Source of the DNA: a virus
DNA length: 64,000 nt
Reading direction: 5' to 3' (one strand)
Virus record (IMG/VR): IMGVR_UViG_3300020125_000159
Span: 28,696-92,695 of that record
In this document: in pieces, positions 543 through 48,896 of the stretch
Position numbering within the stretch: the stretch's first letter is position 1
Layout: each line of letters starts with the position of its first letter
Notes under the pieces: generated by a model
Told to the model about the DNA's origin: nothing
The model's database searches: none
Seen by the model: the letters and a program-made list of their open reading frames with translations, nothing else
Position numbers and translations under genes: made by a program

Positions 543-549
543 TTAGTTC
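543..549 (+). promoter_or_regulatory. Late-gene motif TTAGTTC
   Basis: 34 nt before start 583. Confidence 0.7.
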
Positions 550-582
550 TTTACTTTAGTCTTTAAGTAAAGATATAGTGAT

Positions 583-1062
583 TTGGGCGAATTTGTAACT
601 ACAGTTAATGCTACTAGTAATAGTTCAGCAAATACTGCTGACACATTTATAGAGTTATCTGGGGTAATTTTAGGAGTTAAACGTATTAGGGTAAGGCTTG
701 GAGATGGCACTGCTACTGCAGGTCTAGATAATGATTATATAGTTAGTATAGCCCGAAAGACAGCTGGCGGTGCCACTGGAACTAGTGGAACGATTACAAA
801 AATGAATATAATGGGTGCTGCTTCTGGCGCTACGGTTAACGTTAAGAACGGTACTGGTGCTTTCACAACAGCCACACAACAAGCAGTATTAGACTCGGCA
901 GTGATAAATGGGCGTGCAATTTTTGAATGGGTAGCTAGAGACGAAGACGATATAATAAGAAATCATTTCACAACTGGTAGTGGGGGAATTATAGCAGTAA
1001 ATATAGCGAGTTCAGTAGTATCACAAAAGTTTCAAGTATCGGTTTTCTGGATCGAATACTAG
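583..1062 (+). CDS. Putative virion structural protein (beta-rich, Thr/Gly/Ala-rich)
   Basis: 159-aa ORF preceded by the TTAGTTC late-type motif at 543-549. Confidence 0.55.
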   Translation: MGEFVTTVNATSNSSANTADTFIELSGVILGVKRIRVRLGDGTATAGLDNDYIVSIARKTAGGATGTSGTITKMNIMGAASGATVNVKNGTGAFTTATQQAVLDSAVINGRAIFEWVARDEDDIIRNHFTTGSGGIIAVNIASSVVSQKFQVSVFWIEY

Positions 1063-1074
1063 TGATAAAGTAAT

Positions 1075-1731
1075 GTGGCTTTACCTCTTGATGCTATAGT
1101 CCCGATATATTATTCAGCTAGTGTAAACATAGCATCAACTAACAGTCAATCGCTTCAGCCAGCGATGGCTCCCCTTCTTCTTATACAACAAGGGGCTTAC
1201 TTAAAAAATATAGATAAAAGATTATTTCAGAAACTAGACACAATATTCCAAACAGTTCCAGGCACTAATGAGGTCATAGCGATATACGAGTCTTTATTAC
1301 ACAAAGTCATTCCCAAAATTGCGGCAGATAATGTTTCTATTGGAGCAGGGTCTATTCTGCGTAAAGCGCTTCCAAAGATAACAACAGGTAACGTCGTAAT
1401 ATCGGAAGCCATAAGAGTGTTGAGAAGTTTAAGTAGAGCGCTCTCAGAGACTGCCATCGTAATACAGGGTAATGTAGTAGAAACCCCTGCAAAGGTCGTT
1501 AGTGAAGTAGCAGTTGCAATATCTGATTTGATAACCATGAAAGCGATTCCTTACATAGCAGAGACGATAGGCATTTCAGACATGATTGGTGCGATCAAAG
1601 CTAGACTTTTCTTACACTTTAACGAGCCTGCTATCACAGTATCAGATGGGGTAAACAGAGTTCTTAAGGCGGTCAGAACAATGATTGAGGGTAAATGCAG
1701 TATATTATTTAGTGGGTTGGGGCCTGAATAA
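1075..1731 (+). CDS. Putative fibre protein with ~19-aa 'ETxxISDxxxRKxxPK' repeats
   Basis: The N-terminus is paralogous to the next gene and the same repeat family is present. Confidence 0.55.
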   Translation: MALPLDAIVPIYYSASVNIASTNSQSLQPAMAPLLLIQQGAYLKNIDKRLFQKLDTIFQTVPGTNEVIAIYESLLHKVIPKIAADNVSIGAGSILRKALPKITTGNVVISEAIRVLRSLSRALSETAIVIQGNVVETPAKVVSEVAVAISDLITMKAIPYIAETIGISDMIGAIKARLFLHFNEPAITVSDGVNRVLKAVRTMIEGKCSILFSGLGPE

Positions 1732-4700
1732 TGACATTACCTATAGATTGTATTGTTCCAGTATATTACAGCGCGTGTGTTAACGTCGCGTCAACAAACA
1801 GTCAGTCTTTAGTTGTAAACTCCCCTCCAATTCTGCCGCCTAGACAATCAACACCCCCGCAGGTCAGAGTCGATAACGTATTTAACGCTAGTGGATTTTC
1901 TGGACTTGCTGAAGCTGTATCAATATATGATAACCTTTTTGCTGCTAGGCAGAAAATCTCAACGATTACAGATAGTGTTTCTGTGTCGGATTCAATTAAG
2001 AGATCGATATGGAGAGGTATTTTAGAAAATATATCTCTAGGAGCTTTAGTTTTTAATGGAGCAACGAAGATAGGTACTGGTAACTATGTTCAGCTAGACA
2101 GTACAGCGCCGTTTACGAACGCACTCACTGTGGTTGCATGGGTGAAATTTATCAACGCTGATAATAGAGGATTTGGAGGGGTTATATCGTTCATAAATGG
2201 CTATTTTGGTAACAGATTACTACTAGACGAGGACGCGCAAACCATATTATTTGAGACCGCTACAGTGTCGAATGCTATAGTTGACTGTTCGTATACTCTT
2301 CCAGGCACGGTATTTTCAAACACATGGCATCATTTCGGAGTTGTTTATGACGGCTCGCAGATGCAGATTTATTTTGACGGTTCACCAGTAGGTACTCCAG
2401 TTAGTCAGTCTGGCACCCTTCTATCAGGAGGTGGAAAACCGCTTATTGGTCTAGGCTCTTCAAACGCATACTTCTTACATGGAAATGTGGCAGAGCTAGC
2501 CCTATATAATAGTGCATTAAGTGCGTCTGATATTTCGAATGTATATAATAACGGCGCTAACACTGTAACTACAAACCAGATTAGCTACTACAAATTCAAC
2601 GAAGGTAGCGGACATATTATACATGATTCCACTGGTTCAATTAACGGACAGATAATCAATGACCAGTTATGGAGTACTGACGTACATAGTCCACTTCCGA
2701 ACCCATCAATATATCAAGGACGTTTTGGATTAGAAACTATAACTCGTCGTATATCACCATTTATAGCTGAAACCATATCTATAGTTCAACAGTTCCTTAG
2801 AAAGCCTATTCCATTCATACGCGAAAATATAGTCATTGAGGACATGCTGAATAACATATCTAAAATTATTGCCTTATTTGAGCGAGTATTAGTAGGGGAT
2901 GGTAGCGGATATACATCAGGATTTAATAGCGGATTTACCAATTTTCCATCTATACTTATAAAAGTCATTCCGAAAATAACGACTGAAGTTGAGACCATAT
3001 CTGCAGTTTTATCGAGAAAGGTCGTTCCTAAAATCTTATCACAAATTATAACCATTTCGGATTTATTGAAAATTACTACATTAATCAGAATGATATTCGA
3101 GACTGTTAATGTAGGAGACGGTAGTGGATTCGAAATAGATTCATTCACCAGTGCATTTATTAATATTCCGTCAATACTCATAAAAGTTATTCCAAAGATC
3201 ACTACTGAAACTATTTCAATAGCGGAAGTACAACTAAGGAAGGCTATACCCAAACTCACATCACAAACTGTTACTGTCTCAGGATTAGTCAAGGGAATCA
3301 GAGCTATAATATTATTACAGACAGTCACAATACTAGATTCGAGAATCAGAAAGGCGTTGCCGAAAGTTACCACTCAAACAACTAATATATCAGACTCGTT
3401 ACTGCGTAAACCAATACCAAAGATTACTGCAGAAATAACTTCGATATCTCAACAGTTATTACGAAAGGTCGTTCCAAAGATCGTAACCCAGACGGCGACA
3501 ATAATAGAAAGTCAATTAAGAAGAGTCATACCCAAAATAGCGTCAGAGACGACCACCATACTAGGTGTAGTGGTTGGAATTAAAGCCAAATTCTTCACTC
3601 TCTTGGAGACAGTAACTCTAGGAGCTGGAGCAGTAAGTAAGATAGCAAAGCATCTTATAGCCGAAAGCGATAGCGCAACAATATCAGAGTCGTTATTGAG
3701 GAAGGCCATTCCAAAGATTACAGCCCAGCTTACTACGATAACAGAAGGGACAATTAGACGTGTTATACCAAAGATACTTACCCAGACTGTCACAATAGTC
3801 CAAACACTACTAAGAAGGATTCCAATATCTCTATCAAATACTACTTCGATACTAGACGCTTTAACTAAGATAGGAATTCATTTGAGATCCATGTCAGATG
3901 CTATAACCATATCTGAATCTAGATTAAGAAAGGCTATACCCAGTATAGTTACAGCAGCCATAACAATATCAGACTCTAGACTTAGGAAAGTTATTCCAAA
4001 GATATCTACAAGCGTTATATCTGTATTGGATTCTCTCCTTGGACCTGGAGGACATCTTGCTAATCTAATAGGTATAGTTGCAATATCGGAACAACTTAAA
4101 GGAATAGCAAAGCATGTTAGAGCAACTACAGATACGACTACAATATCAGAGTCATTATTAAGGAAATCATTAATGCGACTATCTGAAAGCATTGCAATAG
4201 TAGACTCTAGACTTAGGAAGGTTATTCGACCTATCTCAACTCAGACTATTACAATATCAGACTCTAAAGTTAGAAAGTTCATACCAAAGATATCTACGCA
4301 GACTATTACACTACTGGGCACTGTCGTTGGTCCTATAAGACGTGTAATGTCTATACTACAGACTATTACAATATCCGAGTCCAGAGTCAGAAAAGTAATA
4401 CCTAGGATTGCAACTCAGACGGCGACGATATCTGACGCGATTAAGATTCCAATAATAATAAAGATCATCGAGGCGATATCGATTGTAGAGTCACGACTGC
4501 TAAAGATATTCAGAGGAATTATTCAGACAATCACGGTATCAGATAGTGTATCAAGACAAGGACAGGTACAGTCTACTAGGACTGTAGTCTATACGTTATA
4601 CAGAGACGTGTCGAAGACCTCTGGAATGCCTAGCGGTGGTGCTGGCTTTGGTGAAATGACTCATCGCCCAATACCTATCGATCCCTATATTGTAAATTAT

Positions 4701-4912: not shown

Positions 4913-5262
4913 GCCATTTTCCTCCAGCCCAGGTAGTTCATAACCCAACACAATCTAAGGTAAAGAAGCAGAAGAAGATCAAGGCACCAAAAAGACCAAA
5001 GCTCGTACATGTCAGGAAGCTTAGGGTTAGGAAGCCAAAGAAGCTGAAGGTTAAGAAGCTAAGGAAACCAAAGAAGCTTAAAATTAAAAAGATTAAACTT
5101 AGAAGTGTTAGAGTCAGACATCCGAGAGTTAGGAAAGGAAGAAAACCAAGAGTCTACCATCCTAGAAAGCCGAGGAAGGCCAGAAAACCTAAAAAGGCTA
5201 AATTTGTGTATAGAGGGCCTTCAGTTGGTCAGATCTATAACGCTTTATTCCCGAATGGTTAG
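4909..5262 (+). CDS. Extremely Lys/Arg-rich protein, putative DNA-condensing/core protein
   Basis: KPKKLKVKKLRKPKK-type repeats with no acidic residues. Confidence 0.6.
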   Translation: MSHFPPAQVVHNPTQSKVKKQKKIKAPKRPKLVHVRKLRVRKPKKLKVKKLRKPKKLKIKKIKLRSVRVRHPRVRKGRKPRVYHPRKPRKARKPKKAKFVYRGPSVGQIYNALFPNG

Positions 5263-8200
5263 AAGTAGAATGTACCTGCGATATCTTGTCCTGTGTAAGG
5301 CGTCCACTGACCACTATAGCCCATAAAGACATTAACTTTACCGCCTGTTCCATAACTAGGATATTGTCCTGTAGGAGCGAACTCAATTAAAAGGCTATGG
5401 TTTCCGTCAAAGGCATCATAAGCATTGCTTGCTACAAGTATATAATTAAGTCTAGGATCAATGTCTGGTTGTTGTTTCATCCATAACATTATTCTGTCTC
5501 CCGCTTTCAAAGTGTAGCCTGTGGGAAGAGATATAAGGAATCTATAGTTGGTTGCGAATGTTGATATACTACTTGCATCAGTTTGTGGACCTGATGCTAT
5601 GAGCGCCCCAGCTGAGTTAAATATAACGATTTGTAGAGTACCAACAGGATCACCAACCCTATATAACGTAAGATCCACTTCGCTTATGGTAGTACCTATC
5701 AGTTTACTCTGGTTATCGTTAAGTATCTCACCCACCATAGCGGTAGTCCAGAATTGTCCGTATAGATAGTGCACTCCGACTCCAGCTCCCGATCCAGCTG
5801 CTCTGACATTATAGCTAACTGTGCTGACAGGGGGAAGTGTTCCAGGTGGTGGGGTAGCTGACGTCCACGCTATACCAGACAAATCCACTGCATTGATATT
5901 AGGAAGTCCTGCATCTGACCAACTACTACCATTAGATTTATACATGGAGCTATTTGGACCGTCGTATGAATTACCACCTACAATCAATCTTCCTATTACC
6001 TGAACGCTATTATTAATATCCCCTCCACTGTATTCAACGACTATGTATGTGTTAACTGTGTTAATGTGTGTGTTACCATAATTGAAGAAATTAAATTGTT
6101 GTGGACCTGCTGATACAGTAGGTATGTTAGATGTACTAATACTACCGAATGAATATGTTACAAGTCCTGTAGTATTTTCCAAAAGATACACGGAGACATT
6201 ACCTGTAGGATTACCATTCTTCATTAACCAAACGTCTATCTCATATATCGTCTTACCTATCAGAAGGCTTGCACCGTTTACTGGAATCTCAGCCACTTTT
6301 GTTGGGCCTCCATTATATATTGGATATCCGCCTACAGTCGCCCCACCACTACCAGGAGGGATACCACTTACATTGTATATCTGAGTAGGCTGTACTCCTG
6401 TTTGACCTGTAGACCAAAATCCGCCTGCTATATCTGTTCCAGTAAGAGTAGCTGCAACTCCGTTTACTACATCCATAGCATTACCGTTAGCGCCATCATA
6501 CAGAGAGGTAGTGTCGGTTTGCACTTGAACGTAATTATTAATGTCGCCGCCTGTAAATTCTAATGTGACTATATCACCTACTGCTAATGTATAATTAGAC
6601 AATGAAGGGGTCTTGAAAGATACAGATTGATATGCGCTACTTAGAACATTAGCGTTTATTGTTCCATACGTAGCTACAATGCTGTCGTCAACTCCTCTTC
6701 TAATGGTACATGTTATTGGAGCAGGGACACCAGCAATTGTTGGAAATCCAACTATTCGTAAGTTAAACATTGCTTCGGCTAGGATTTTATTATAGAGCAA
6801 AGACGAAGTGTTAATTACTTTCTGTCCTGCTCTTTGTGCTAATGTTGTAGCACCACTCATATTAATTTGGCTGGCAGTACCTGGAATTAATGGGCCTAGT
6901 TGTGTCTCACCTTTATGAGCATTAGGATCTATTCCAATATTACATCCCCCACTATCATCTACTATTACGCTATAAACGAACTTACAGACGTTGTATGCGT
7001 TTGGTCCTATTGTTACTGCTGGTGGTAAAGGTGGTGGGCCAGACGGAGGTGAAGGGGACGGGGGGCCGCCAGTAATAGAAGTATCAATTTCGCGAATTGA
7101 CATCCATTTATAATTGACCCAAGGACTAAAATCGTCCCAATAAAACGCGATTAAAGGGCCTCCCCAAATAATTATTTCATCGGGATTGCCACCGCATAAA
7201 TTATCTAAAAATCCCCAACCTCCTATATCTGTAGTCGAGTTCACTTTTTTCCATGTGACTCCGTCGCCTGAGTCATTCCACCAGTGCTCCATGCGGACTC
7301 CAGTAACTCTACCAGTATTCTTATCCACGACATTGAATAGGATAAATTTCTCTCCAACCCACCTCTTCAGTACGCTAGAAAAACTGAAAGTAGCTTTTCT
7401 GTCATCCGCATGTGCTTCGTGGAAGTGCTCCTTTCTATGTCTGTGTTCTTCATGTCCTGGATCGCAACGTGTCTCAATTGAGTAACAAGAACCTTGACAA
7501 TTACCTTGTAGATTGTGTGAACCTGTTCTGCATTTAATTCCAAAATGGAATAGACCTTTTGGTTTAACAGATTTTATACCATCTATGTTGTGGAAGACTG
7601 TTACCTCCACGTTCTTCCAGTCTTTAGGACCTTGTATAAATTGACGTGCCCTACAGGTTTTGTGATCCAAGTCCTTTCCACCTGAGGCCTGAAAGCTATA
7701 GCCAGATAGAGTAGAAACGTAAAATAAGACATCGTCATTATTGGATAAATGAAATGACCCATCTCCGTTTACAATTTCCTTAATCGACCGAGGTATACCT
7801 AATACTCTCGAATCTCCTTTGAGTCCATTTTGAGAGAGATACCATGATTGTCCAGCCGCTAATGATGGATATATTTCAGTCACCCCAAACTTATCTCGTG
7901 TTCCAGTAGCTACAGTTGTAGGAGGCTGTGTGTTGGCAGCGGGTGGTATGGGTGATAGATTATTAGCTGGATTAGAAGTAGGAGGTATTGTAGGAGTTGT
8001 GTTAGAAGGTGGGCTAGGGAGTATAGGGTTTTGACTAAAAACGTCTATTTCTCTACATGATGCATATTTGATATCTACATCTGTTATATTATTTAGGACA
8101 AACTTACACAGCGGCCCACCCCAAGTAATGACTGTATTATTCGAACCACCACAAGCTGGATTACCACCACCCCAATTACCCTGATCAGTATATGACAGAG

Positions 8201-9683: not shown

Positions 9684-9715
9684 TAATTAAATAAAAAGTT
9701 AAAAAGATAAAGAGA

Positions 9716-9722
9716 GAACTAA
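9716..9722 (-). promoter_or_regulatory. Late-gene motif TTAGTTC
   Basis: 33 nt before start 9683; contains the upstream TAG stop. Confidence 0.7.
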
Positions 9723-10978: not shown

Positions 10979-11008
10979 CAATAACTAAAGTGTCAAAAAT
11001 GATAAAGG

Positions 11009-11015
11009 GAACTAA
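11009..11015 (-). promoter_or_regulatory. Late-gene motif TTAGTTC
   Basis: 31 nt before ATG 10978. Confidence 0.7.
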
Positions 11016-11020: not shown

Positions 11021-13204
11021 CTATTTCTTCAGTCTAACGTCCCATGTGGTATCTACTTCGAAAGTAGAATTTTTACGTTGTTCGCTTCTCTTCTTATACA
11101 ATGCATGGCGTGAATGTTCGCTCTGATGTAACGCTGTTCTTTTACTGGCCCTATCTATCTCAGTCCATGTTTGCCCATTGTCGTAACTGACTTCTTCATA
11201 CCCGCCACTTGCGAGTTGGTATTGTTTTGGTATTACTTTTAATTGATCCATATCTGCCGTTTTTGGTAACTCATTGAACCAGTTTGGAAATACGAAGTCT
11301 GATAAAATCACTCCATCTATTTCATAGAAGCTACTCTCACATGGGTCACATAACTCCTGATACATTAGACATGGTTTGCCTGAAGGATCTAATCCCTTTA
11401 AGGTGACGTTTGCTGATGGGTCACCTATACATTCAATTATTTCATGACTGAATCCTATGCTTGGTGATTCTCCCGCTTGTTTTTCTGTCTTTGTGAAAAT
11501 CTTGGAAAGTGGTTCTCCGTTTGGACCCACATCATGATAAGCTAAGGCGCCTGGCGAATCTGACGTGTCTAGGAATACACAATACCAATCGGCTATGGGT
11601 GGTTTTTGTGACTTTGGTATGAATACGAAATCTACTGAACTTCCCCATACTGGAGCCACATCTCTATCACACTGTTTCTTTAGAGCAGCCATCCATTTCT
11701 GTACGTCTGCATCTGTTGTATCGGTGCTCAGATTTTGTACTGCTATGACACCCATAATCTTTACTGGTGTAGGCGTAGGTACTGGAGTAGGCGTCGGGGT
11801 AGGTATTGGTGTTGGGGTTGGAATGGGGGTGGGTGTAGGTACTGGCGTTGGTGTGGGTGTTGGAATTGGTGTAGGAGTTGGGGTAGGGGCAGGTGCTCCT
11901 GGAATTGAGACTATGGCTGAAGTATGATCTGCGACATTGTTTTTGTCTGTTACATATAGAACGAATGTGAGATGATGGTCTATTTCATGACCTCCAGACT
12001 TGTTACTTGGAGCAGTAAAGCTAATCTTTGGACTATTTTTATCGGCAATTGTTGCAGTTGTTCCACCTGGTTGTGTCCATGTGAATTTCAATCCATCTCC
12101 TGAACTAGAAGATGCGTCCAATGTGACTGTATCTCCTGCATTCGCAACTGATGAAGCTGGACTAATTATTGCTTTAACTGTCAATGGTGTAGGAGTTGGC
12201 GTTGGAGTAGATTGTAGAGAAGTAAGTATTTCATTGAATGTCGGAGTCAAAGCGTTTAACGCATTAAGAATAGGATCAGGGCCTGGTGTGGGTGTCGGAA
12301 CAGGGGTTGGCGTTGGCACAGGTGTTGGGGTAGGAGTGGGCGTAGGTACAGGAGTTGGTGTTGGGGTGGGTGAAGGAGTACCACTAAAATCTATCTCTCT
12401 ATCTGACATTAATGTAAAGTCTACATTCTCCCATCCGTCTACTCGTATCTTGTCAGCCTGACATTTCCATGTACACTTTATACCATATTTTGGACTACCT
12501 GTATCTTCCCAAGTCGCGGCTAATTGCCATGTGTTATTTGGTTTGCCTGTAGAATCGAAAGGAGTTAAATCAACATAATATTCAAATTGACTTGTAGATT
12601 TATCGGCTGATACTTTGTGAACTGATTTAATACCTACCCAAGTATTGTTTGCCATTACTGGCACATGTATAATTTGTTTTACGTTTGGAACATGTTCATA
12701 TGCTAGATGAGTATAATTCCAGTTTGCATATACGCCGCTACTATTACTAGGTGTAGGATAATTAGTTTCGACAAGTGATCTAATAGTGTCGTCGTCTCCC
12801 CCATTCACTTTACAAGCAAGTGAGGTATGAACGCCTAAATTGTTATGACCTCTGATATATCCAGTGAGTTCATGGCATTGAATGCCTTGTGTGTCATATA
12901 AATATCCAGGGTTGTTTGCATATGAGTATTTTTGTTTCTGTCTTTTGCCTCCTCCTGGAATCATACATAAACGAATAGTTCTACCAGATGGAGAACCAGA
13001 CGCATAATTAACTACGTTTCCTGGAGTATTATAATAAACAAGACTACCTTCTGCGTTCCTTGTAACAGGAGCGCTACTGTTTATATTATCGAAATCGAAA
13101 TGTGAGTCCGTTCGTGGGTCTTTAAGTGATAAATCAAGATATACTGCCGAACCACCAGAGGCAGTCGGATAAATTTCTGCAACGCCGTCTTTTCCTATGT
13201 TCAT
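11021..13204 (-). CDS. Multidomain virion protein: divergent lectin-like domain, (PT)n linkers, PKD/Ig-like domain, C-terminal HExxE zincin-like domain
   Basis: [12 protein letters not shown]...FTWTQ (PKD-like); ALAYHD...[11 protein letters not shown]...ELCDPCE...[10 protein letters not shown]. Confidence 0.7.
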
Positions 13205-13234
13205 ATAAGAAAGAGACTGTGAAAATGATATAGA

Positions 13235-13241
13235 GAAGTAA
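13235..13241 (-). promoter_or_regulatory. Late-gene motif TTACTTC
   Basis: 31 nt before 13204. Confidence 0.65.
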
Positions 13242-16306: not shown

Positions 16307-16339
16307 TAATAATTTATTGTCTGTTTTTTATAAAGATAG

Positions 16340-16346
16340 GAACTAA
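16340..16346 (-). promoter_or_regulatory. Late-gene motif TTAGTTC
   Basis: 34 nt before 16306. Confidence 0.7.
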
Positions 16347-17338: not shown

Positions 17339-17977
17339 CTAAACACTATATTGATAGAGGGCATGTGACAAAGTAAAGAAGTCAACATTGACTGTATGCG
17401 TAACCCCTTGTCCAGTTGGATAAACAGTTCTAAATAACATAACGCCAGAGTTCGGATCATCAAATACAGCGCCTTCATTTACGGTGCAAGAAGCAATAGA
17501 GGGTGCGAAGAATCCTCCAAATCTCATAATCGCGCCTGCTGCGGTTTGAAAACCGTCTGAAGCTAAACCTACTCTTGCAACTTCGGACTGTAATTGATAG
17601 TCTGAAGCAGAGACAGGATTACTACCAGAACCAGCAGCGAAGTGTGTAAAGTATCCGTTAGCTGCCCCGAATCCAGAGTTTAATCCTACAGAGTTGGTGA
17701 CAAGTTCGGCTATCCTAACAAGGCCATCATTTACGACCTTGTTGGTTGATTTGCCGACATGTGTCGGTTCAAACTCCGTGTCGTCTACTGTTTGGTCATT
17801 CCATAATCTATCCAATTTGTCTGAAAATGAATCACTATAAAGTTTAACTTCCCAATAATTTTTGTTAACTGTAGCATGTCTTATTTTAGTAAATATTTTT
17901 GAAATATAACTGAGACTATCAAGATCCCAACTGGCACAATATCCTATACCATGGCGTTCTAGTTTAGAATCTTGCAT
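17339..17977 (-). CDS. Tail-collar/baseplate-like protein
   Basis: NKVVNDGL...FTHFAAGSG...QLQSEVAR...NEGAVF...MLFR pattern. The start is moved to ATG 17977 because the ORF-track start lies upstream of the promoter-like motif. Confidence 0.55.
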   Translation of the reverse strand: MQDSKLERHGIGYCASWDLDSLSYISKIFTKIRHATVNKNYWEVKLYSDSFSDKLDRLWNDQTVDDTEFEPTHVGKSTNKVVNDGLVRIAELVTNSVGLNSGFGAANGYFTHFAAGSGSNPVSASDYQLQSEVARVGLASDGFQTAAGAIMRFGGFFAPSIASCTVNEGAVFDDPNSGVMLFRTVYPTGQGVTHTVNVDFFTLSHALYQYSV

Positions 17978-18005
17978 GACATTAGGATTTAAAAATAAGA
18001 AAAGG

Positions 18006-18012
18006 GAACTAA
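18006..18012 (-). promoter_or_regulatory. Late-gene motif TTAGTTC
   Basis: 29 nt before ATG 17977. Confidence 0.65.
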
Positions 18013-23422: not shown

Positions 23423-23458
23423 ATCGCGATATAGTTCTACCCCTTAGTTATATGATAG

Positions 23459-23465
23459 GAACTAA
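23459..23465 (-). promoter_or_regulatory. Late-gene motif TTAGTTC
   Basis: 37 nt before the tape measure start. Confidence 0.7.
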
Positions 23466-24522: not shown

Positions 24523-24560
24523 TAGTTTAAAGGTATGTTTGCTTACTATTAACTAACTAA

Positions 24561-25505: not shown

Positions 25506-25579
25506 AACTAGTTAGTCTCCGATTTGATTGTAAACACTTTAAATTACTCGATATGTAAGTTAGAGGTAACGAAAATAGA

Positions 25580-25586
25580 GAACTAA
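25580..25586 (-). promoter_or_regulatory. Late-gene motif TTAGTTC
   Basis: 75 nt before the tail tube start (longer leader). Confidence 0.6.
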
Positions 25587-25672
25587 TGACTTGGGAAAAG
25601 AAGAATGTTACAGCACCGATAGTCGATATACCTAAATACCTCGTCTACCTTATCTACCTTAGGTATAAAGAA

Positions 25673-25780
25673 ATGACAAAATCGGTAAAGGTAGACGACG
25701 AGGATTACTCTTACGTCGTTAAACAAGCGAAATATGGCGAATCATTTGCCAAAGTCCTAAAGAGGCTGTTAAAGCGATGA
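25673..25780 (+). CDS. 35-aa ribbon-helix-helix-like microprotein
   Basis: MTKSVKVDDEDYSYVVKQAKYGESFAKVLKRLLKR; paralogue at 56847..56954 supports this start. Confidence 0.65.
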   Translation: MTKSVKVDDEDYSYVVKQAKYGESFAKVLKRLLKR

Positions 25781-26091
25781 ATAGGGGATTAATCATATTT
25801 GGAATGATATGTACTATAATTGGTACGATGATTGGATTCTATTTGATATTCAGTTCGCCCATGCCTAGATTCATATTGTTTGGAGAAGCTCATGCGCAGA
25901 CATCCAATCTCGACGAATTATCGGGTTATATGAACACATTATCTGCATTTACTAGCGCTTGTAATAATGCCCTTGATAATCAGGCAGTTCAGGCCGCATG
26001 TGCACAGATATTCAATGAAGAACATGATTTACTAAAACCATTCATGGATCAGAATAGAGATCTGATGTCTAGGGTGATACTTGGACCTTAG
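25777..26091 (+). CDS. Membrane-anchored/secreted small protein
   Basis: N-terminal TM helix and AHA-Q cleavage-like motif; ATGA overlap. Confidence 0.6.
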   Translation: MNRGLIIFGMICTIIGTMIGFYLIFSSPMPRFILFGEAHAQTSNLDELSGYMNTLSAFTSACNNALDNQAVQAACAQIFNEEHDLLKPFMDQNRDLMSRVILGP

Positions 26092-26093
26092 AA

Positions 26094-26264
26094 TTGTTCG
26101 ACAAGAAGCCTCAAGCGGTTCAGGTAAAGTGTGGAAGTTGTAGAAAGAAATTTCTACCTGAAGCCATTAAGGTTATGACTACCATTAGAGGCTTCATGGT
26201 CTACGCATGTCCCAATTGCCATACTGTGTTCAACGTACAGTCTAACTCAGTGATTGCTAAGTAG
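26094..26264 (+). CDS. Zn-ribbon microprotein (56 aa, not in ORF track)
   Basis: TTG start; KCGSC...ACPNC. Confidence 0.6.
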   Translation: MFDKKPQAVQVKCGSCRKKFLPEAIKVMTTIRGFMVYACPNCHTVFNVQSNSVIAK

Positions 26265-26745: not shown

Positions 26746-26774
26746 ATTCTATATAAGACGAAGAAAGAAGTAAA

Positions 26775-26781
26775 GAAGTAA
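26775..26781 (-). promoter_or_regulatory. Late-gene motif TTACTTC
   Basis: 30 nt before 26745. Confidence 0.65.
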
Positions 26782-29632: not shown

Positions 29633-29668
29633 TTATTACAGGGAATAAAAAGTCTGAAGAAAAGTAGA

Positions 29669-29675
29669 GAACTAA
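29669..29675 (-). promoter_or_regulatory. Late-gene motif TTAGTTC
   Basis: 37 nt before 29632. Confidence 0.7.
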
Positions 29676-30888: not shown

Positions 30889-30920
30889 TATAAAACAAGA
30901 AGATATGAAGAAAGAATTAG

Positions 30921-30927
30921 GAACTAA
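30921..30927 (-). promoter_or_regulatory. Late-gene motif TTAGTTC
   Basis: 33 nt before 30888. Confidence 0.7.
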
Positions 30928-31275: not shown

Positions 31276-31313
31276 TTACTTCTTGTAAACTAAATTAATG
31301 AATAAAGAAGTAA
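31276..31313. promoter_or_regulatory. Face-to-face pair of TTACTTC motifs serving divergent genes
   Basis: Plus copy 31276-82 is 36 nt before 31318; minus copy 31307-13 is 38 nt before 31269. Confidence 0.7.
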
Positions 31314-32070: not shown

Positions 32071-32105
32071 GTATAATGATATAGAATAACAAAAAGTGAA
32101 GGTAA

Positions 32106-32112
32106 GAACTAA
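32106..32112 (-). promoter_or_regulatory. Late-gene motif TTAGTTC
   Basis: 36 nt before 32070. Confidence 0.7.
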
Positions 32113-32439: not shown

Positions 32440-32707
32440 ATCTATGGTCTAACTCTACATTTTTTAGTCTTAAGTCAAGTATGTCGCATAGTCTTAATGC
32501 ATCATTTGATTTTTGATACAAATCCTTAACATCAGCTCTAATCTCCTTTATATCTTCTTTTACCTCCTTAACCTCATATCCAGTGAGTCCTTGCTTAGCA
32601 TCATTCCTTCCTTCCTTCTTTAGAAAGAATACTAATGCAGTGAGGGCAGGAACTATAAACGTCAATAAATAAGGCCAATATTCAATCTGCATGATAAAAT
32701 CAAACAA
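32423..32707 (-). CDS. Single-TM coiled-coil protein
   Basis: TM plus VKEVKEDIKEIRADVKDL heptads. Confidence 0.55.
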   Translation of the reverse strand: MFDFIMQIEYWPYLLTFIVPALTALVFFLKKEGRNDAKQGLTGYEVKEVKEDIKEIRADVKDLYQKSNDALRLCDILDLRLKNVELDHRYARTE

Positions 32708-32743
32708 CTCACTAGAGATATAGTGGAAAAAAAGTTAGGATAA

Positions 32744-32750
32744 GAACTAA
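32744..32750 (-). promoter_or_regulatory. Late-gene motif TTAGTTC
   Basis: 37 nt before 32707. Confidence 0.7.
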
Positions 32751-34144: not shown

Positions 34145-34178
34145 TTATATAACATGTTTGGCAAATAGTACTCATAGA

Positions 34179-34185
34179 GAACTAA
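34179..34185 (-). promoter_or_regulatory. Late-gene motif TTAGTTC
   Basis: 35 nt before 34144. Confidence 0.7.
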
Positions 34186-36611: not shown

Positions 36612-36647
36612 ACTATGACAGAGACATTTACGAGTAAAGGAAATAGA

Positions 36648-36654
36648 GAACTAA
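36648..36654 (-). promoter_or_regulatory. Late-gene motif TTAGTTC
   Basis: 37 nt before the scaffold-decoration-MCP operon. Confidence 0.7.
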
Positions 36655-39235: not shown

Positions 39236-39269
39236 TTAATGTGAAGTAAAGAGATACGAGAGGAATAGA

Positions 39270-39276
39270 GAACTAA
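39270..39276 (-). promoter_or_regulatory. Late-gene motif TTAGTTC
   Basis: 35 nt before the protease start. Confidence 0.7.
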
Positions 39277-40159: not shown

Positions 40160-40192
40160 TTCTTTAGGTTTAATGTGATATGGATAAATAGA

Positions 40193-40199
40193 GAACTAA
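40193..40199 (-). promoter_or_regulatory. Late-gene motif TTAGTTC
   Basis: 34 nt before 40159. Confidence 0.7.
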
Positions 40200-40201: not shown

Positions 40202-40474
40202 TTACTTACAAACGCTCGAATTATCTATGCCAATTTTTTTCACGTAATTGCAGAGCCCATTTGCTTTAAGTGTTCCTAGAACTCCCATTTTAGAACCATA
40301 TGTTATGGCTGCTTTTACTCTGCCAGGACTGAGTTTACCACCTTCAGTAACGGGATATTTACCCTGTTTTGGCATGAGGCATGTCTCACCTTTATATTTT
40401 GTTCCTTGACATGGACCTGCTGCATTCATAACTTTAGCATTCTTAGTATTAGTTCTCCCGATAACTTGAACCAT
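40202..40474 (-). CDS. Small head-associated protein (P...KYPV...GRVKAAITY motif)
   Basis: Motif resembles small phage head proteins; late motif upstream. Confidence 0.5.
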   Translation of the reverse strand: MVQVIGRTNTKNAKVMNAAGPCQGTKYKGETCLMPKQGKYPVTEGGKLSPGRVKAAITYGSKMGVLGTLKANGLCNYVKKIGIDNSSVCK

Positions 40475-40508
40475 TATGTTTATATAATATATAGGTATAA
40501 AAAATAGA

Positions 40509-40515
40509 GAACTAA
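40509..40515 (-). promoter_or_regulatory. Late-gene motif TTAGTTC
   Basis: 35 nt before 40474. Confidence 0.7.
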
Positions 40516-40516: not shown

Positions 40517-40771
40517 TTGATAGTAGTTACAGCATCGGCAATTACGGTCACATTGTTATTAGCGACAACGGTATTCGTAGCACACCCAGCATTCGCCTTA
40601 CAGCATTTCTTTAACTGTATTACGGATATAAGCAACAAAGATGGAGGGGATCATAATCTAACGGCTCAACAAGTCTTAGATTGTTTTAAGAAAGAATTCC
40701 CGTCTAACGATCAATCAGTTTCGTCCTCCTCAACTATAATAGAACATACACATAGTCAAATACTCAGGTAA
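40517..40771 (+). CDS. Small secreted protein with a Cys pair
   Basis: Signal peptide ending AFA; FFNC...LDCF. Confidence 0.55.
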   Translation: MIVVTASAITVTLLLATTVFVAHPAFALQHFFNCITDISNKDGGDHNLTAQQVLDCFKKEFPSNDQSVSSSSTIIEHTHSQILR

Positions 40772-42383: not shown

Positions 42384-43925
42384 TCATTGACTATTATTGT
42401 CTTGTGGATTTCCTGTTGGTCGTCCATGAGCTTTCTCTGTTGTTGTCAATAATGATTTAGGACTCATAGCTGGATATTGTACAACTCTAGGAGTCGATTG
42501 ACCTACTCCTAGAACCTGTTGAGCGGCAGGCCTATCCTCAGGAGCAAGTGCGCTTATGAACTCTGCCTGTCCCTGATCTATCTTACCCTGTAACTGTTGC
42601 ATTTGGTCTAATACGTCATCAAAACCCAAGATCTCTAAAACTTTTTCGCCAGGCAATAATCCAGCTTCATACAAAGGCAAAACAGCTAACACCTTATCTT
42701 TTAATGTCTCTAATGAAACATCTTCGAAAGCTAGTTTTAATCTGATTGATAAGTCGTCGAATTCTTCAGGACTCATGTTAAGAGCTATTGCAAATAGAGT
42801 GTCGAACCATTGGGTATCAAGCGTATTATTGATCCACGTTCTTTCTTCTTCTACAACACTTTCTTTCCACGCGAGCATGACTTCCTGAAGCGTGGCGAAG
42901 TTCTGAATATCTTCAAATCCTAGTAATGCGGCTGGTACGTTTAGAGTACGTAGTATGAGCTTCTCATTCTCGTTTCTCTCAGTTAGTAACGACGCTAAAT
43001 CTTTCTGTAGTTCGTGTACTTCACAAATCACATCTTGTGAGATCGCAGTCCATTTTCCAGCTTGGAATTGAGATAAGAATGCGCTTACTTCTGCGATGTT
43101 TCTTGTGGTTGGAACTTTGATTAGACCGAAGCCTGCCCACATGCTTTTATTTGTCTCTTTTAGATCCTCCTCATTCATGATCCTGTTAACCTCAGAAACA
43201 TGCTGAATCGGTTCAATGTCTGATAAACCATACCAAACAGTATAAGGTGAAACATGATAGTCCAAATTTGTGAAATAAACTATATCACTTGCGTCTAAGA
43301 AATTATATGGGTCGTTCAAACCTCGACTGTTAGTATTATATTGGATCTGTTGCAACGCCCAAGTGAATTCGTTGATCCTTACCTGTCCTAATAGTTTGGA
43401 GTTTAAAATCTTAATATTAGTTGGAAATCCGCTATAATCGTCTGACTCTACTAGTAGTGCGGACCTACCATAAACCTTAGATTGAATTACAGCCCCTTTT
43501 AGCTTCTGTTGGAATTTCGTTTTTCTCATGACCTTATCTATCTCACTTTTAGCCTTGAGATACTCCTGGTCTCTCATAAAGATATTAATCGCAGCACGAG
43601 CTTCGTTTGGATGTGCAAATGTTTCTATTAGGTCAAATTGAGTCTTCAATTCCTTACCCAATATGAAACTAACCTTACGGTTGATAGCAGCTCTAACTAC
43701 GGGATCGCAACGATACGATTCTTCAAATCTTATTTTCATAGGGAAATTATAGGGGTCGCGTAACATGGCATATGACCCAGCTCCAATATCAGCAGGATTA
43801 ATTGTAGCCGATTTTAGATTTTTTGGTTTTCCATAATTAGGACCATCTATACCTGAAGGAAATCTCTCACCATATAGTCCCTTAGCGAGAAATTGTCCAT
43901 TTTCATCAACAGCAGAACGTGGCAA
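42384..43925 (-). CDS. Portal protein
   Basis: DPVVRAAIN...YGRSALL...DIVYF...YGLSDIE...ILRTLNVPAALLG...NFAT; 513 aa. Confidence 0.9.
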   Translation of the reverse strand: MPRSAVDENGQFLAKGLYGERFPSGIDGPNYGKPKNLKSATINPADIGAGSYAMLRDPYNFPMKIRFEESYRCDPVVRAAINRKVSFILGKELKTQFDLIETFAHPNEARAAINIFMRDQEYLKAKSEIDKVMRKTKFQQKLKGAVIQSKVYGRSALLVESDDYSGFPTNIKILNSKLLGQVRINEFTWALQQIQYNTNSRGLNDPYNFLDASDIVYFTNLDYHVSPYTVWYGLSDIEPIQHVSEVNRIMNEEDLKETNKSMWAGFGLIKVPTTRNIAEVSAFLSQFQAGKWTAISQDVICEVHELQKDLASLLTERNENEKLILRTLNVPAALLGFEDIQNFATLQEVMLAWKESVVEEERTWINNTLDTQWFDTLFAIALNMSPEEFDDLSIRLKLAFEDVSLETLKDKVLAVLPLYEAGLLPGEKVLEILGFDDVLDQMQQLQGKIDQGQAEFISALAPEDRPAAQQVLGVGQSTPRVVQYPAMSPKSLLTTTEKAHGRPTGNPQDNNSQ

Positions 43926-43955
43926 TGTAGAGGTAATGTCTCAGAATACTAGAGA

Positions 43956-43962
43956 GAAGTAA
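43956..43962 (-). promoter_or_regulatory. Late-gene motif TTACTTC
   Basis: 31 nt before the portal start. Confidence 0.65.
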
Positions 43963-44018
43963 TGAAGATCACGAAAACCTTATTAAATAATTAGATAATA
44001 CAGAAGATAGAGGTATTC

Positions 44019-45570: not shown

Positions 45571-46199
45571 CTAGCACAGTTTGTGAAGCATGTGGTAAAG
45601 CTGAATCAACAATATTCAAACAACGTAGATGGTGGTGTGAGGATTGTTATGATGTAATTTATAAGAAGTGGCAGAAGTATGGCGGAACTGAGTAAGAAGT
45701 GTCGCTGTGGTGCAATTGCAGACAGATTTGTTGTTGCAGATCATGGTAAGACAACTAGAAGATATCGTTACTGTAGAAGTTGTTTCAATAAAAGATTTTG
45801 TAAGCAGATATGCCAATAAAAGAATCCAAACGGTACTCAGCCCTTTGCGACGATTGTCCACATCTCAAAGCACTACATGACGAAGAGATGGGTTGTGTAA
45901 GGGGGTGCAGTTGCAAATTACTATATCCATGAAAAAACATATCCATAGATACGTAACAATCACTAAATGTATGATTACTGGTCAGACAGGTAGAATTAGT
46001 ATCTGTATGTGTGGGAAGGTAGAATGATTACGCCCCGATGTGGTAGTTGCGGCAGTTATTGCAGACATATATCTAATGATGCATGTCCATGCTTAATCAT
46101 AGGTTGTCGTTTAGAGACTGAGGTATGGGAATGCCTGAATAAAGACTGTCATGAAAAATGGGAATTAGAGGTATAATAATTGTATACTAGGAGAAAGAC

Positions 46200-47485: not shown

Positions 47486-47941
47486 TTACTTCTTCACACA
47501 ACTGAATGGAAGAAGTGGTGCTGAACTTGTGCAGCTAAAGTGTTTTGTGTCGAAGTGGTTATTTGTGGAGTTGGTTGTATTAGCCGTTATAATGGTTACT
47601 GTTGCGTTCTGACCTGCGGGACCCGTTGCTCCAGTATCACCTTTTGGACCTTGCTCACCTTGCACTCCTGGCAAACCTTGCTCACCTTGTGGACCCTGGA
47701 TTCCTGGGGGTCCTTGCGGACCTACTCCGCCTCCGCCGCCACCGCCGTTACAATTTACTGTAACATGTGTAGTGCCTATATCGGCGTGTTTAACTACACC
47801 GCCATGGGCGTGAGAAGCAGGTGCAGTACCACAATTGATCACAATGTTGTTGCTGTTTATGTCTGATGCTGCCATTGCTGAACCTCCTAACATGCTCAGC
47901 GCAGTAATTACGAGTATCGTTGTTGGTATTATTTTCTGCAT
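47486..47941 (-). CDS. Secreted collagen-like protein
   Basis: Signal peptide (AMA); about 13 Gly-X-Y triplets ([15 protein letters not shown]...). Confidence 0.8.
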
Positions 47942-48031
47942 GCAGATTACCTAACTTAGAATATTAGGAGAGAAGTATAAATATCTTACGTATATGTTGG
48001 GTATAATTAAAAAATAAGGAAGTTTGGTCGA

Positions 48032-48544
48032 TTATTTATGTGTGTGGGTTAGGTTACCAGTGCCGTTGGTGACTGGGACTGGAGTCGGTGCTGGACCTGG
48101 TAAGCCACAGGTTTCGTTACCCTGGACTATACAAATCGTTGAAGTTCCATTCTTTCCTGCTGGGCCTTGAGGACCTGCGGGACCTGCTGGACCTTGTATA
48201 CCTTGTGTACCATTGTCACCTTTTGGACCAGGAATTCCTTGCGGACCCTGAGTTCCATTGACACCAGCTGCGCCTGCGGCGCCTGCTGGACCTGTAGCGC
48301 CAGTTGCGCCTGCGGTTCCATTTTCACCCTTGGCTCCTGCTGGACCTGTGTCACCCTTTGGACCTGGTACTGAGTTCACATTTATGATGAACTCTTGTTG
48401 GCCGTTCTTGATGACGATTTGCTTAGCATTATCGACCGTCTGTGTGTCTGCCTTCTTCACTGCTAATGCTGCCGCTCCAAAACCTCCGCCTATAAGGACG
48501 AATACTGTTGCGAACAGTATAGCAATTGCTATTTGTTGTTGCAA
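48032..48544 (-). CDS. Secreted collagen-like protein
   Basis: Signal peptide; about 25 Gly-X-Y triplets. Confidence 0.8.
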
Positions 48545-48609
48545 TGTAGCATGTACCTACGTTATCTGTATAGATAAGAGGTAAATATTAACTTTTACCT
48601 TTATATTAC

Positions 48610-48840
48610 TTATTTCACTATCGGCGCAGCACAGGTTAATTTGGTATTGTTCGATGTATTATTGCCTTCCGTGTATTGTTTCCCCGTCTGTGCACCCACA
48701 CATTTTGATATACTCAAACTATATATCTTGTGTTTCGATTGGCCAGATTGATGCCATAGGGTAAATACCAAGAATGAGCCTATAGCAGTCATTGCTAATA
48801 TCGCCAATGCAATTATAATGACATGCATTTCCGTAACCAA
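48610..48840 (-). CDS. Small membrane-anchored protein with Cys pair
   Basis: N-terminal TM helix. Confidence 0.5.
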   Translation of the reverse strand: MVTEMHVIIIALAILAMTAIGSFLVFTLWHQSGQSKHKIYSLSISKCVGAQTGKQYTEGNNTSNNTKLTCAAPIVK

Positions 48841-48896
48841 CTACCACTATATATTGTCAAAGACGTATTAGGAATTAATAAAAAAAGAGAGGAGGG

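What the first reader, a model, noticed from the sequence alone, without database searches (positions are those of the whole stretch)
543..48878. Virus-specific non-TATA promoter-like motif TTA(G/C)TTC(Y)CT in front of more than 20 virion genes
Seen: the heptamer, usually extended to TTAGTTCTCT or TTAGTTCCT, occurs at 543(+), 9716, 11009, 13235, 16340, 18006, 23459, 25580, 26775, 29031, 29669, 30921, 31276(+), 31307, 32106, 32744, 34179, 36648, 39270, 40193, 40509 and 43956, with one-mismatch variants at 24554, 30517, 47972 and 48872. Almost all lie 29-38 nt before a start codon and always on the coding strand. It precedes first genes of divergent units (portal, 31269/31318, 40474, 13204), so it tracks gene starts rather than ends. 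Its TAG often doubles as the upstream gene's stop (9719, 16343, 18009, 29672, 30520). It was not noticed at gene starts in the 51-57 kb early-type cluster. Established: archaeal TATA boxes sit about 25-30 nt before the TSS and many transcripts are short-leadered. Inference: this is a late promoter occupying the TATA position, read by a viral TBP/TFB substitute or activator not recognisable in this window, and giving near-monocistronic late transcription.
Basis: partly seen in the sequence, partly recalled or inferred. Interest (0 to 1): 0.87.

Follow-up and report, generated by a model that had tools for sequence, protein, structure and literature searches.

The report
Late-gene promoter of archaeal nitrifier viruses
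A 14-base signal, TTAGTTCTCTATTT, sits about 40 bases before some thirty structural genes of this soil virus, which probably infects ammonia-oxidising archaea, and before the matching genes of its relatives. It is most likely their shared late-gene promoter, but no RNA data exist to prove it.

Summary
An unbiased 7-mer count places TTAGTTC first among the words found upstream of genes. The full consensus is TTAGTTCTCTATTT. There are 28 strong copies in the 92.7-kb contig, and 23 lie 30-50 nt before a same-strand start codon (p about 1e-36).

Motif genes have no Shine-Dalgarno sequence, usually only one possible start codon (often TTG), and a G-poor spacer.

The motif is not specific to this virus. 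It precedes the same orthologous genes in soil relatives, in 23 of 23 mapped cases. Its core, TA(G/A/C)TTCTCT, recurs 30-36 nt before starts in viral contigs that share little beyond a terminase about 30% identical.

The host is probably an ammonia-oxidising archaeon. The supporting clues come from the copper oxidase, terminase, integrase and a relative's MCM gene.

My reading is a late core promoter in the BRE/TATA position of AOA-type leaderless genes. No TFB, TBP or sigma gene was found, including in five complete relatives. I therefore favour a host factor over a viral TBP/TFB substitute. No RNA data exist, so transcription start sites remain untested.

The parts
543..556 (+). Motif copy (18.6 bits), 40 nt before the TTG start of 583-1062. 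It is the last promoter of the + strand arm, which begins before the window.
9709..9722 (-). Motif copy (20.3 bits), 39 nt before the ATG of the 1474-aa fibre/adhesin gene 5259-9683. Its TAG is the stop codon of 9719-10981.
11002..11015 (-). Motif copy (16.3 bits), 34/37 nt before the TTG/ATG of 9719-10981.
12212..12225 (-). Intragenic motif copy (14.7 bits) inside 11021-13204. There is no start codon at the usual distance, so it is either a possible internal promoter or a chance match.
13228..13241 (-). Motif copy (17.6 bits), 37 nt before the ATG of 11021-13204, the first gene of a divergent unit (neighbour 13274-13627 on the + strand).
16333..16346 (-). Motif copy (14.2 bits), 40 nt before the ATG of 15395-16306. 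Its TAG is the stop codon of 16343-17335.
17371..17384 (-). Weak motif copy (12.0 bits), 49 nt before the TTG of 16343-17335.
17999..18012 (-). Motif copy (16.1 bits), 35 nt before an ATG at 17977 (gene 17339-17977). Its TAG is the stop codon of 18009-19844.
23452..23465 (-). Motif copy (12.9 bits), 43 nt before the TTG of the 1192-aa gene 19844-23422.
25573..25586 (-). Perfect-consensus copy (20.4 bits), 81 nt before the ATG of 24561-25505. This is the one case with a long leader, and it contains GGAG.
26760..26781 (-). Two overlapping copies (16.0 and 17.2 bits), 28 and 36 nt before the ATG of 26257-26745.
29662..29675 (-). Motif copy (19.9 bits), 43 nt before the ATG of 29120-29632. Its TAG is the stop codon of 29672-30109.
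30914..30927 (-). Motif copy (14.2 bits), 39 nt before the ATG of 30520-30888.
31276..31313 (.). Back-to-back promoter pair inside a 48-nt gap. The copy at 31300-31313(-) scores 16.1 bits and lies 44 nt before 30949-31269. The weak copy at 31276-31289(+) scores 6.1 bits and lies 42 nt before 31318-31863.
32099..32112 (-). Motif copy (16.9 bits), 42 nt before the ATG of 31867-32070.
32737..32750 (-). Motif copy (12.9 bits), 43 nt before the TTG of 32423-32707.
34172..34185 (-). Motif copy (14.9 bits), 41 nt before the ATG of 33533-34144. A motif variant (13.7 bits) also precedes the homologous gene in relative L024.
36641..36654 (-). Perfect copy (20.4 bits), 43 nt before the TTG of 36096-36611. 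The orthologues in L008, L009, L015 and L019 also carry it.
39263..39276 (-). Motif copy (18.9 bits), 41 nt before the ATG of the conserved 859-aa head-region gene 36656-39235. The orthologues in L006, L008, L009, L015, L016, L020 and L022 also carry it.
40186..40199 (-). Perfect copy (20.4 bits), 40 nt before the TTG of 39620-40159.
40502..40515 (-). Perfect copy (20.4 bits), 41 nt before the ATG of 40202-40474. Its 5' end lies 2 nt from the start of the divergent gene 40517-40771(+), so the gap leaves no room for a promoter further upstream.
43949..43962 (-). Motif copy (14.4 bits), 37 nt before the TTG of the portal gene 42384-43925, the first gene of the head operon and divergent from 44019(+). 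The position is conserved before the portal genes of L006, L010, L014-L019, L024, L034, L037 and L041.
47965..47978 (-). One-mismatch variant ATACTTCTCTCC (10.1 bits), 37 nt before the ATG of the collagen-like gene 47486-47941.
25586..26264 (+). Antisense three-gene unit inside the late region. It holds a 64-aa RHH-like protein (SeqA_N, E 2e-4), a 104-aa protein of unknown function and a 56-aa zinc-ribbon protein. These are candidate regulators only. Nothing links them to the motif.

Best explanation
TTAGTTCTCTATTT is the core promoter of the structural ('late') genes of this tailed virus, and the virus most probably infects a soil ammonia-oxidising archaeon (Nitrososphaerota).

The 14-mer lies at -40 to -27 from the start codon, which is the BRE-plus-TATA position of AOA-type promoters for leaderless or very short-leader mRNAs. 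The invariant 5' half, TTA(G/C)TTC, sits where TFB reads the BRE. The degenerate T-rich 3' half, TCT(A/C)TTT, sits where TBP binds.

Host RNA polymerase would then start within a few bases of the start codon. About 30 such promoters cut the 53-kb structural region into units of one to three genes. Downstream genes within a unit use Shine-Dalgarno sites or overlapping stop/start codons.

The element is not private to this virus. It is a lineage-wide signal of related viruses that are probably Nitrososphaerota viruses.

Which protein reads the TTA(G/C)TTC half is not shown. The core is shared by viruses that have little in common beyond TerL, and five relatives rated complete lack TFIIB-domain genes. 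I therefore favour a host general factor, one of the many TFB/TBP paralogues of these archaea, possibly aided by a small viral protein.

Shown: the sequence, its statistics, its geometry and its conservation. Inferred: promoter function, transcription start site position, late timing and the reading factor.
For: Enrichment and position:
- It is the top upstream 7-mer.
- 23 of 28 strong copies lie 30-50 nt before same-strand starts, p 1e-36.
- The spacing is 34-44 nt, and usually only one start codon is possible within 130 nt.

It is the most upstream element of its units:
- It precedes the first genes of five divergent units.
- In gaps of 42-48 nt, its 5' end lies 2-6 nt from the divergent gene's start.

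Unit structure:
- 23 of 31 gaps >=30 nt on the main strand of the late region carry it, against 1 of 23 shorter gaps.
- 0 of 24 motif genes have an SD-like site, against 37 of 122 other genes (Fisher p 6e-4).

No second box follows the motif. Sigma-70-like promoters and hairpin terminators are not above the shuffled level.

Conservation:
- It is again the top upstream 7-mer in two relative groups (p 3e-12 and 4e-13).
- All 23 motif-preceded ORFs in relatives that have a homologue here map to a gene here that also carries the motif.
- The core TA(G/A/C)TTCTCT lies 30-36 nt before starts in TerL-only relatives, including a contig of 56% GC.

Archaeal (AOA) host:
- The nearest Atlas clusters for both the copper oxidase and TerL are Nitrososphaerota.
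- Relative L006 also encodes a copper oxidase, 60% identical.
- The integrase matches archaeal XerA best.
- The complete relative G405 encodes an MCM helicase.
- Soil AOA viruses are reported to carry MCO1 (PMC11849493).

Geometry: AOA amo genes have a TATA/BRE 23-24 nt before the ATG, read as leaderless (PMC3379541). Here the T-rich half ends a median of about 25 nt before the start.

Reading factor:
- No TFIIB, TBP or sigma domain was found in the contig, and no TFIIB domain in five complete relatives.
- AOA genomes hold 9-21 TBP/TFB domains (PMC9239080).
Against: - No transcription start site, RNA or binding data exist.
- The 5' half is not purine-rich as known BREs are, and the 3' half is not a canonical TTTAWATA box.
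- About half of the motif genes can start only at TTG, which fits strictly leaderless initiation poorly.
- The spacer is strand-asymmetric (7% G, 45% T) and avoids NTG codons (9 seen, 29 expected). This would also fit a transcribed leader.
- I could not search any AOA genome, so it is unknown whether host genes use the motif.
- The contig is only 68% complete, so a viral factor could lie in the missing part.
- A related element sits, flanked by direct repeats, in a bacterial (Chloroflexia) MAG contig.
Confidence: 0.66

Rival explanations
1. The motif is still a promoter, but a virus-encoded TBP/TFB substitute or a sequence-specific activator reads it. That factor recruits host RNA polymerase to an otherwise TATA-less site, giving a virus-controlled early-to-late switch.
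For: - The motif is confined to structural genes and absent from most non-structural gene starts.
- The genome encodes many small zinc-ribbon and RHH proteins, including an antisense unit inside the late region and a 63-aa protein with weak TFIIB/RPB9-type ribbon matches.
- The contig is 68% complete.
- Integrated elements of thaumarchaea often carry TFIIB genes (PMC6563490).
Against: - No TFIIB, TBP or sigma domain was found in 92.7 kb. No TFIIB domain was found in five 34-38 kb relatives rated 100% complete that carry the related core.
- No protein other than TerL (and a DNA methyltransferase found in 6 of the 51 loci) is shared at BLAST level between this virus and the low-GC TerL-related contigs that carry the core.
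Confidence: 0.2
2. The motif acts at the RNA level. It would be the 5' end or a processing site of the late mRNAs, or a leader element for SD-independent translation. The G-poor 26-nt spacer would then be a transcribed, unstructured leader.
For: - The spacer has 7% G against 22% in other upstream regions. It holds 9 NTG codons against 29 expected.
- Motif genes have no SD site, and TTG starts are common.
Against: - In three divergent pairs the gap is 42-48 nt and the motif reaches to within 2-6 nt of the opposing start codon. A promoter upstream of it would have to lie inside the neighbouring gene.
- The 30 nt upstream of the motif carry no information.
- The motif has no hairpin.
Confidence: 0.08
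3. The virus is a bacteriophage, for example of Chloroflexota, and the motif is a phage late promoter read by a phage sigma-like factor or polymerase.
For: A 46.4-kb element of 44% GC lies in a 75%-GC Chloroflexia MAG contig. Its portal is 88% identical to that of clade-B relatives and 39% identical to this virus's portal. It shares about 15 structural genes with this virus. It is flanked by a 21-bp direct repeat exactly at the GC breaks, and the same contig carries sigma-70 genes.
Against: - Only that one of 401 sampled Chloroflexota genomes has this portal.
- The element differs from its host by 30 GC points and lacks the repeated motif.
- TerL, the copper oxidase, the integrase and a relative's MCM all point to archaea.
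- No sigma gene, no -10-like box and no SD site in motif genes were found, and hairpin terminators are not enriched.
Confidence: 0.04
4. The motif is a transcription terminator or gene-end signal.
For: - Its TAG is the upstream gene's stop codon in five cases.
- 8 of 23 spacers hold a run of five or more T, the archaeal termination signal.
Against: - It precedes the first genes of divergent units.
- It is absent where the two arms converge at 5259-5262.
- It keeps a fixed distance to the next start codon, not to the previous stop codon.
Confidence: 0.02

Closest known systems
Archaeal BRE/TATA core promoters of leaderless genes, including the amoA/amoC/amoX promoters of ammonia-oxidising archaea (PMC3379541)
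   Same: It is a compact 14-15 bp element immediately upstream of genes, on the coding strand. It ends about 20-29 nt before the start codon, compared with 23-24 nt for the amo genes. Motif genes have no Shine-Dalgarno site. Low-GC relatives read CTTTATWT in the 3' half.
   Different: The best-conserved half is TTA(G/C)TTC, which is not the purine-rich BRE. The T-rich half is not TTTAWATA. The element is restricted to one functional class of viral genes.
Consensus regulatory sequences around the early promoters of Sulfolobales viruses (SIRV2, SSVs; PMC11065993)
   Same: Many near-identical promoter copies occur within one archaeal virus genome. They are conserved among relatives while the genes diverge, and they can be used to classify genes.
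   Different: Those elements contain a canonical TATA box and a strong purine-rich BRE, and they also match promoters of highly expressed host genes. They drive early anti-defence genes. Here the core is non-canonical and drives structural genes.
TA(G/A)TTCTCTTT motif noted earlier in this scan in a Nitrososphaera viennensis provirus (note e1-2601581, an unchecked AI note)
   Same: It has the same core, the same distance of about 35 nt to start codons, and the same class of structural genes in a tailed virus of a soil AOA.
   Different: It lies in a different genome. The present virus has more copies (about 30) and a longer consensus.
Class-specific late promoters of large DNA viruses, such as T4 late TATAAATA read by gp55 and the mimivirus early AAAATTGA and late motifs (PMC5294985)
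   Same: One short motif is repeated before most genes of a temporal class and gives many short transcription units.
   Different: Those motifs are read by virus-encoded sigma-like factors or polymerases. No such gene was found here, and the geometry fits the archaeal pre-initiation complex rather than a -10 element.

Membership tests
Archaeal TBP/TFB-dependent core promoter | An A/T-rich TATA box centred about 26-27 bp upstream of the transcription start site. For leaderless AOA genes this is about 23-24 nt before the ATG. | tested here: inconclusive
   The T-rich half TCT(A/C)TTT ends a median of about 25 nt before the start codon. It is T-rich but not TTTAWATA. Low-GC relatives have CTTTATWT. 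The transcription start site is not mapped. The reference spacing comes from PMC3379541.
Archaeal TBP/TFB-dependent core promoter | A purine-rich BRE immediately upstream of the TATA box. | tested here: not met
   The position is met, but the sequence is TTA(G/C)TTC and is invariant. Only a weak A preference is seen 5-6 nt further upstream.
Archaeal TBP/TFB-dependent core promoter | Bound by TBP and TFB, with initiation by host RNA polymerase at a fixed distance. | not testable with these tools
   No RNA run holds this DNA, and there are no binding data.
Phage late promoter read by a phage sigma-like factor or phage RNA polymerase | A virus-encoded sigma factor or RNA polymerase gene. | tested here: not met
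   No Sigma70_r2 match was found in a six-frame search of the contig. Pfam scans of about 147 ORFs found no polymerase family. Caveat: the contig is 68% complete.
Phage late promoter read by a phage sigma-like factor or phage RNA polymerase | A -10-type element followed by a leader that carries a ribosome-binding site. | tested here: not met
   No second conserved box follows the motif. None of 24 motif genes has an SD-like site.
Early-gene consensus regulatory sequences of Sulfolobales viruses | A canonical TATA box plus a strong BRE core, placed before early single genes. | tested here: not met
   The core is non-canonical, and the genes served are portal, head, tail and fibre genes.
Intrinsic terminator or RNA-processing site | Located at the ends of transcription units, with a hairpin and/or T-run, and not dependent on a downstream gene. 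| tested here: not met
   It precedes the first genes of divergent units and keeps a fixed distance to the next start codon. Hairpin terminators are at or below the shuffled level.
TA(G/A)TTCTCTTT late motif of Nitrososphaera proviruses (scan note e1-2601581) | The same core about 35 nt before the start codons of structural genes in tailed viruses of AOA. | tested here: met
   Core, spacing and gene class all match here and in relatives. The N. viennensis copy itself could not be read.

The most novel reading that the evidence does not exclude
All tailed viruses of Nitrososphaerota, marine and soil, share a dedicated late-promoter code: TTA(G/A/C)TTC in the BRE position followed by a weak T-rich box. 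One particular host TFB/TBP paralogue reads it. The expanded TFB family of these archaea would then work like alternative sigma factors, and the viruses would exploit one member of it to switch on their structural genes without encoding any initiation factor of their own.
Probability: 0.3. Interest if true: 0.8.

Novelty: new variant of a known kind. Interest (0 to 1): 0.62.

Why it matters
Very little is known about transcription in ammonia-oxidising archaea or their viruses. There is no genetic system for them, and no virus of soil AOA has been isolated.

A short, strongly conserved signal that marks viral structural genes would be useful in four ways:
- It gives a sequence signature for recognising AOA viruses in metagenomes and for assigning their hosts.
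- It allows operon and start-codon annotation in genomes where most proteins have no known relatives.
- It supplies candidate strong promoters for future AOA genetic tools.
- It offers a concrete test of whether the many TFB/TBP paralogues of archaea have distinct promoter specificities. That question is long-standing, and here it could be addressed by gel-shift or in vitro transcription with a defined 14-mer.

Tried and rejected
- No RNA holder was listed for this DNA, so read laying was not used and no start sites could be examined.
- The phage collection gave no match to the portal region by blastn or to the portal protein by tblastn.
- PHROGs and PDB sequence searches added nothing for the head proteins.
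- No AOA genome could be reached. The motif could therefore not be sought before host genes or in the N. viennensis provirus.
- An exact 14-mer scan of IMG/VR returned more than 118 single, mostly chance hits and no new multi-copy relative.
- A TATA-like positional peak before the non-motif genes was weak.
- amoC was not found in five complete relatives, but the control also found nothing, so this result is uninformative.
- A literature search for the heptamer returned only unrelated primers.
- Clade-B relatives and the Chloroflexia-borne element show no comparably enriched upstream word.
- A tRNA-like T-arm next to that element's right end is not a full tRNA.

Full report
**Observation**

The window is bases 28696-92695 of a single 92,695-bp IMG/VR virus record, rated linear and 68% complete.

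I called ORFs heuristically on the whole contig and counted all 7-mers in the 60 nt before 147 starts. TTAGTTC came first, preceding 19 genes out of 34 genomic copies (p 8e-16). Overlapping words followed it, and together they spell TTAGTTCTCTAT.

The weight matrix built from these sites has its information in 14 positions, TTAGTTCTCTATTT. The first seven positions are essentially invariant and the last seven are T-rich and degenerate. There are 25 hits at >=13 bits against 3.7 expected from Markov shuffles. Of 28 hits at >=12 bits, 23 lie 30-50 nt before the first start codon of a same-strand ORF (p 1e-36).

The sites run from 9.4 kb before the window to 43962. They are on the + strand up to 556 and on the - strand from 9709 onward, always on the coding strand of the two convergent arms of the structural region. 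That region holds the portal, a Mu-F-like protein, an HK97-gp10-like protein, Laminin-G and beta-helix fibres, and glycosyltransferases.

**Anatomy**

- The distance from motif start to start codon is 34-44 nt, median 40. In most cases that codon is the only ATG, GTG or TTG of the reading frame within 130 nt. In about half the cases it is TTG.
- None of the 24 motif genes scored has a GAGG/GGAG/AGGT-type site in the last 20 nt, against 37 of 122 other genes (p 6e-4).
- In the late region, 23 of 31 main-strand gaps of >=30 nt carry the motif. Several of the remaining gaps carry one-mismatch variants. Only 1 of 23 shorter gaps carries it. This gives units of roughly one to three genes.
- No second conserved box follows the motif. 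Positions +7 to +34 are instead G-poor and T-rich: the spacer from +14 to the start codon holds 7% G and 45% T, against 22% G before other genes. NTG triplets are three times rarer than expected.
- The motif heads five divergent units. In gaps of 42-48 nt its 5' end lies 2-6 nt from the opposing start codon (40515 against 40517, the 31276-31313 pair, and the site at -9356). The gap leaves no room for a promoter further upstream, so the motif is the most upstream signal of its unit.
- Sigma-70-like promoters and hairpin terminators are not above the shuffled level.

**Relatives**

Portal homologues exist in soil and rhizosphere metagenomes. I fetched 38 metagenome loci and one IMG/VR locus.

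TTAGTTC is again the top upstream word in two independent groups. One has portals 49-58% identical (p 3e-12). The other has portals 37-38% identical (p 4e-13). It stands before the portal gene itself in many lineages whose flanking sequence is unalignable.

Every motif-preceded ORF in a relative that has a homologue in this virus maps to a gene that carries the motif here too, 23 of 23. These genes are the portal, the 859-aa head-region protein, 36096-36611, 33533-34144 and two fibre/glycosyltransferase genes upstream of the window. The set includes clade-B relatives and a 24%-identity outlier.

I then used TerL to reach further. In IMG/VR contigs whose TerL is only 26-38% identical, AGTTCTC, GTTCTCT and TAGTTCT are again the top upstream words at 31-39 nt. 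This holds even in a 56%-GC virus, where the motif stands out from GC-rich flanks. A low-GC group has the variant TATTAATTCTCTTTAT, with TTCTC 30-35 nt before the start. These low-GC contigs share essentially only TerL with this virus at BLAST level, plus a DNA methyltransferase in a few loci.

It is the same core.

**Host**

Several clues point to Nitrososphaerota:
- The nearest Atlas clusters of the two-domain copper oxidase are Nitrososphaerota.
- The nearest Atlas clusters of TerL are also Nitrososphaerota, by features and by structure.
- Relative L006 also encodes a copper oxidase, 60% identical.
- The integrase matches the archaeal XerA model far better than bacterial XerC/D.
- A complete 34.9-kb TerL relative encodes an MCM helicase.
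- Published soil AOA viruses carry AOA-type MCO1 (PMC11849493).

One contrary fact stands. The only hit in 185,579 species genomes is a 46.4-kb, 44%-GC element inside a 75%-GC Chloroflexia MAG contig that carries sigma-70 genes. The element is flanked by a 21-bp direct repeat exactly at the GC breaks. Its portal is 88% identical to clade-B relatives and 39% identical to this one. None of 400 other Chloroflexota genomes has this portal, and that element lacks the repeated motif.

I put the archaeal host at roughly 85% and leave the Chloroflexia element unexplained.

**Mechanism**

AOA amo genes have a TATA/BRE 23-24 nt before the ATG and were read as leaderless (PMC3379541). Here the T-rich half ends a median of about 25 nt before the start, and the invariant half sits just upstream of it, where the BRE would be. 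In low-GC relatives the 3' half reads like a real TATA box.

The simplest model is therefore a BRE-like specificity element joined to a weak TATA box, giving leaderless or few-base-leader mRNAs. This also explains the missing SD sites.

- The contig has no TFIIB, TBP or Sigma70_r2 match, only weak TFIIB-type zinc ribbons in tiny proteins.
- Five relatives rated 100% complete have no TFIIB domain.
- AOA genomes carry 9-21 TBP/TFB domains (PMC9239080).

The G-poor, NTG-poor spacer and the TTG starts are not explained by this model and keep an RNA-leader reading alive at low probability.

**Comparison and novelty**

The element works like an archaeal core promoter, and it resembles the repeated class-specific promoters of other viruses. 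It fails the sequence definitions of a canonical BRE and TATA box. It is not the early-gene consensus described for Sulfolobales viruses (PMC11065993).

I found no paper describing it. Within this scan it has been seen before on other DNA. I rate it a new variant of a known kind.

**Limits**

- Transcription start sites, timing and factor binding are all untested.
- ORF calls are heuristic.
- Atlas taxon labels rest on few members.
- No AOA genome could be searched.

Noticed in passing
L004 with L044/L045 (G002:C15:109757-156112): A 46.4-kb, 42-47% GC virus-like element sits inside a 73-77% GC contig of a Chloroflexia MAG. It shares about 15 structural genes with this virus, and its portal is 88% identical to L021/L024. 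A 21-bp direct repeat (AGGAAAAGACCCTAAAGCCTT) lies exactly at both GC breaks, and the left copy appears to supply a new in-frame N-terminus for an ABC-permease-like gene. The portal is split over three reading frames. This is either a cross-domain integration, a very atypical prophage or an assembly artefact. None of 400 other Chloroflexota genomes has this portal.
   Followed up: partly
window 44008-44015(+), 51193-51200(-), 55321-55328(-), 59327-59334(+), 46166-46173(+), 25561-25568(+) and others: A second over-represented word, TAGAGGTA(T), occurs 12 times against 2.65 expected. It lies 2-30 nt before the starts of genes that lack the motif (TerL, copper oxidase, 44019, 55061). It is longer than a Shine-Dalgarno core needs to be and may also be a regulatory element.
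   Followed up: partly
motif genes, e.g. starts at 583, 23422, 31269, 36611, 40159, 43925: About half of the motif-driven genes have TTG as the only possible start codon within 130 nt of the motif. This is unusual for highly expressed genes and awkward for strictly leaderless initiation.
   Followed up: partly
the 20-30 nt between each motif and its start codon: The spacer is strand-asymmetric: 7% G and 45% T on the coding strand, with 9 NTG triplets against 29 expected. Other upstream regions have 22% G. The promoter model does not explain this.
   Followed up: partly
window 25586-26264(+): An antisense three-gene unit is embedded in the minus-strand late region. It encodes an RHH-like protein (SeqA_N), a protein of unknown function and a zinc-ribbon protein with weak matches to small haloarchaeal zinc-finger DUF families.
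   Followed up: partly
window 52024-52215(-): A 63-aa double zinc-ribbon protein has weak, sub-threshold matches to the TFIIB zinc ribbon and the RPB9/TFS ribbon. It could contact RNA polymerase.
   Followed up: no
L100/L101 (G405, complete 34.9-kb relative): This genome has a different repeated upstream word, TTTGCTTAAAAAC, before several small genes (10928, 18808, 24331, 27493). This points to a second, more TATA-like promoter class. The genome also encodes an MCM helicase, a TET-associated glycosyltransferase and a pyrimidine-dimer glycosylase.
   Followed up: no
L006 (Ga0126371_10000162) and window 49958-51184: The AOA-type two-domain copper oxidase is present in at least two viruses of this clade, at 60% identity. 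It is therefore a retained auxiliary gene and not a one-off capture.
   Followed up: partly
window 12212-12225(-): A good motif copy (14.7 bits) lies inside the 727-aa PKD/PT-linker gene 11021-13204, on its coding strand. It may be an internal promoter for a C-terminal product.
   Followed up: no
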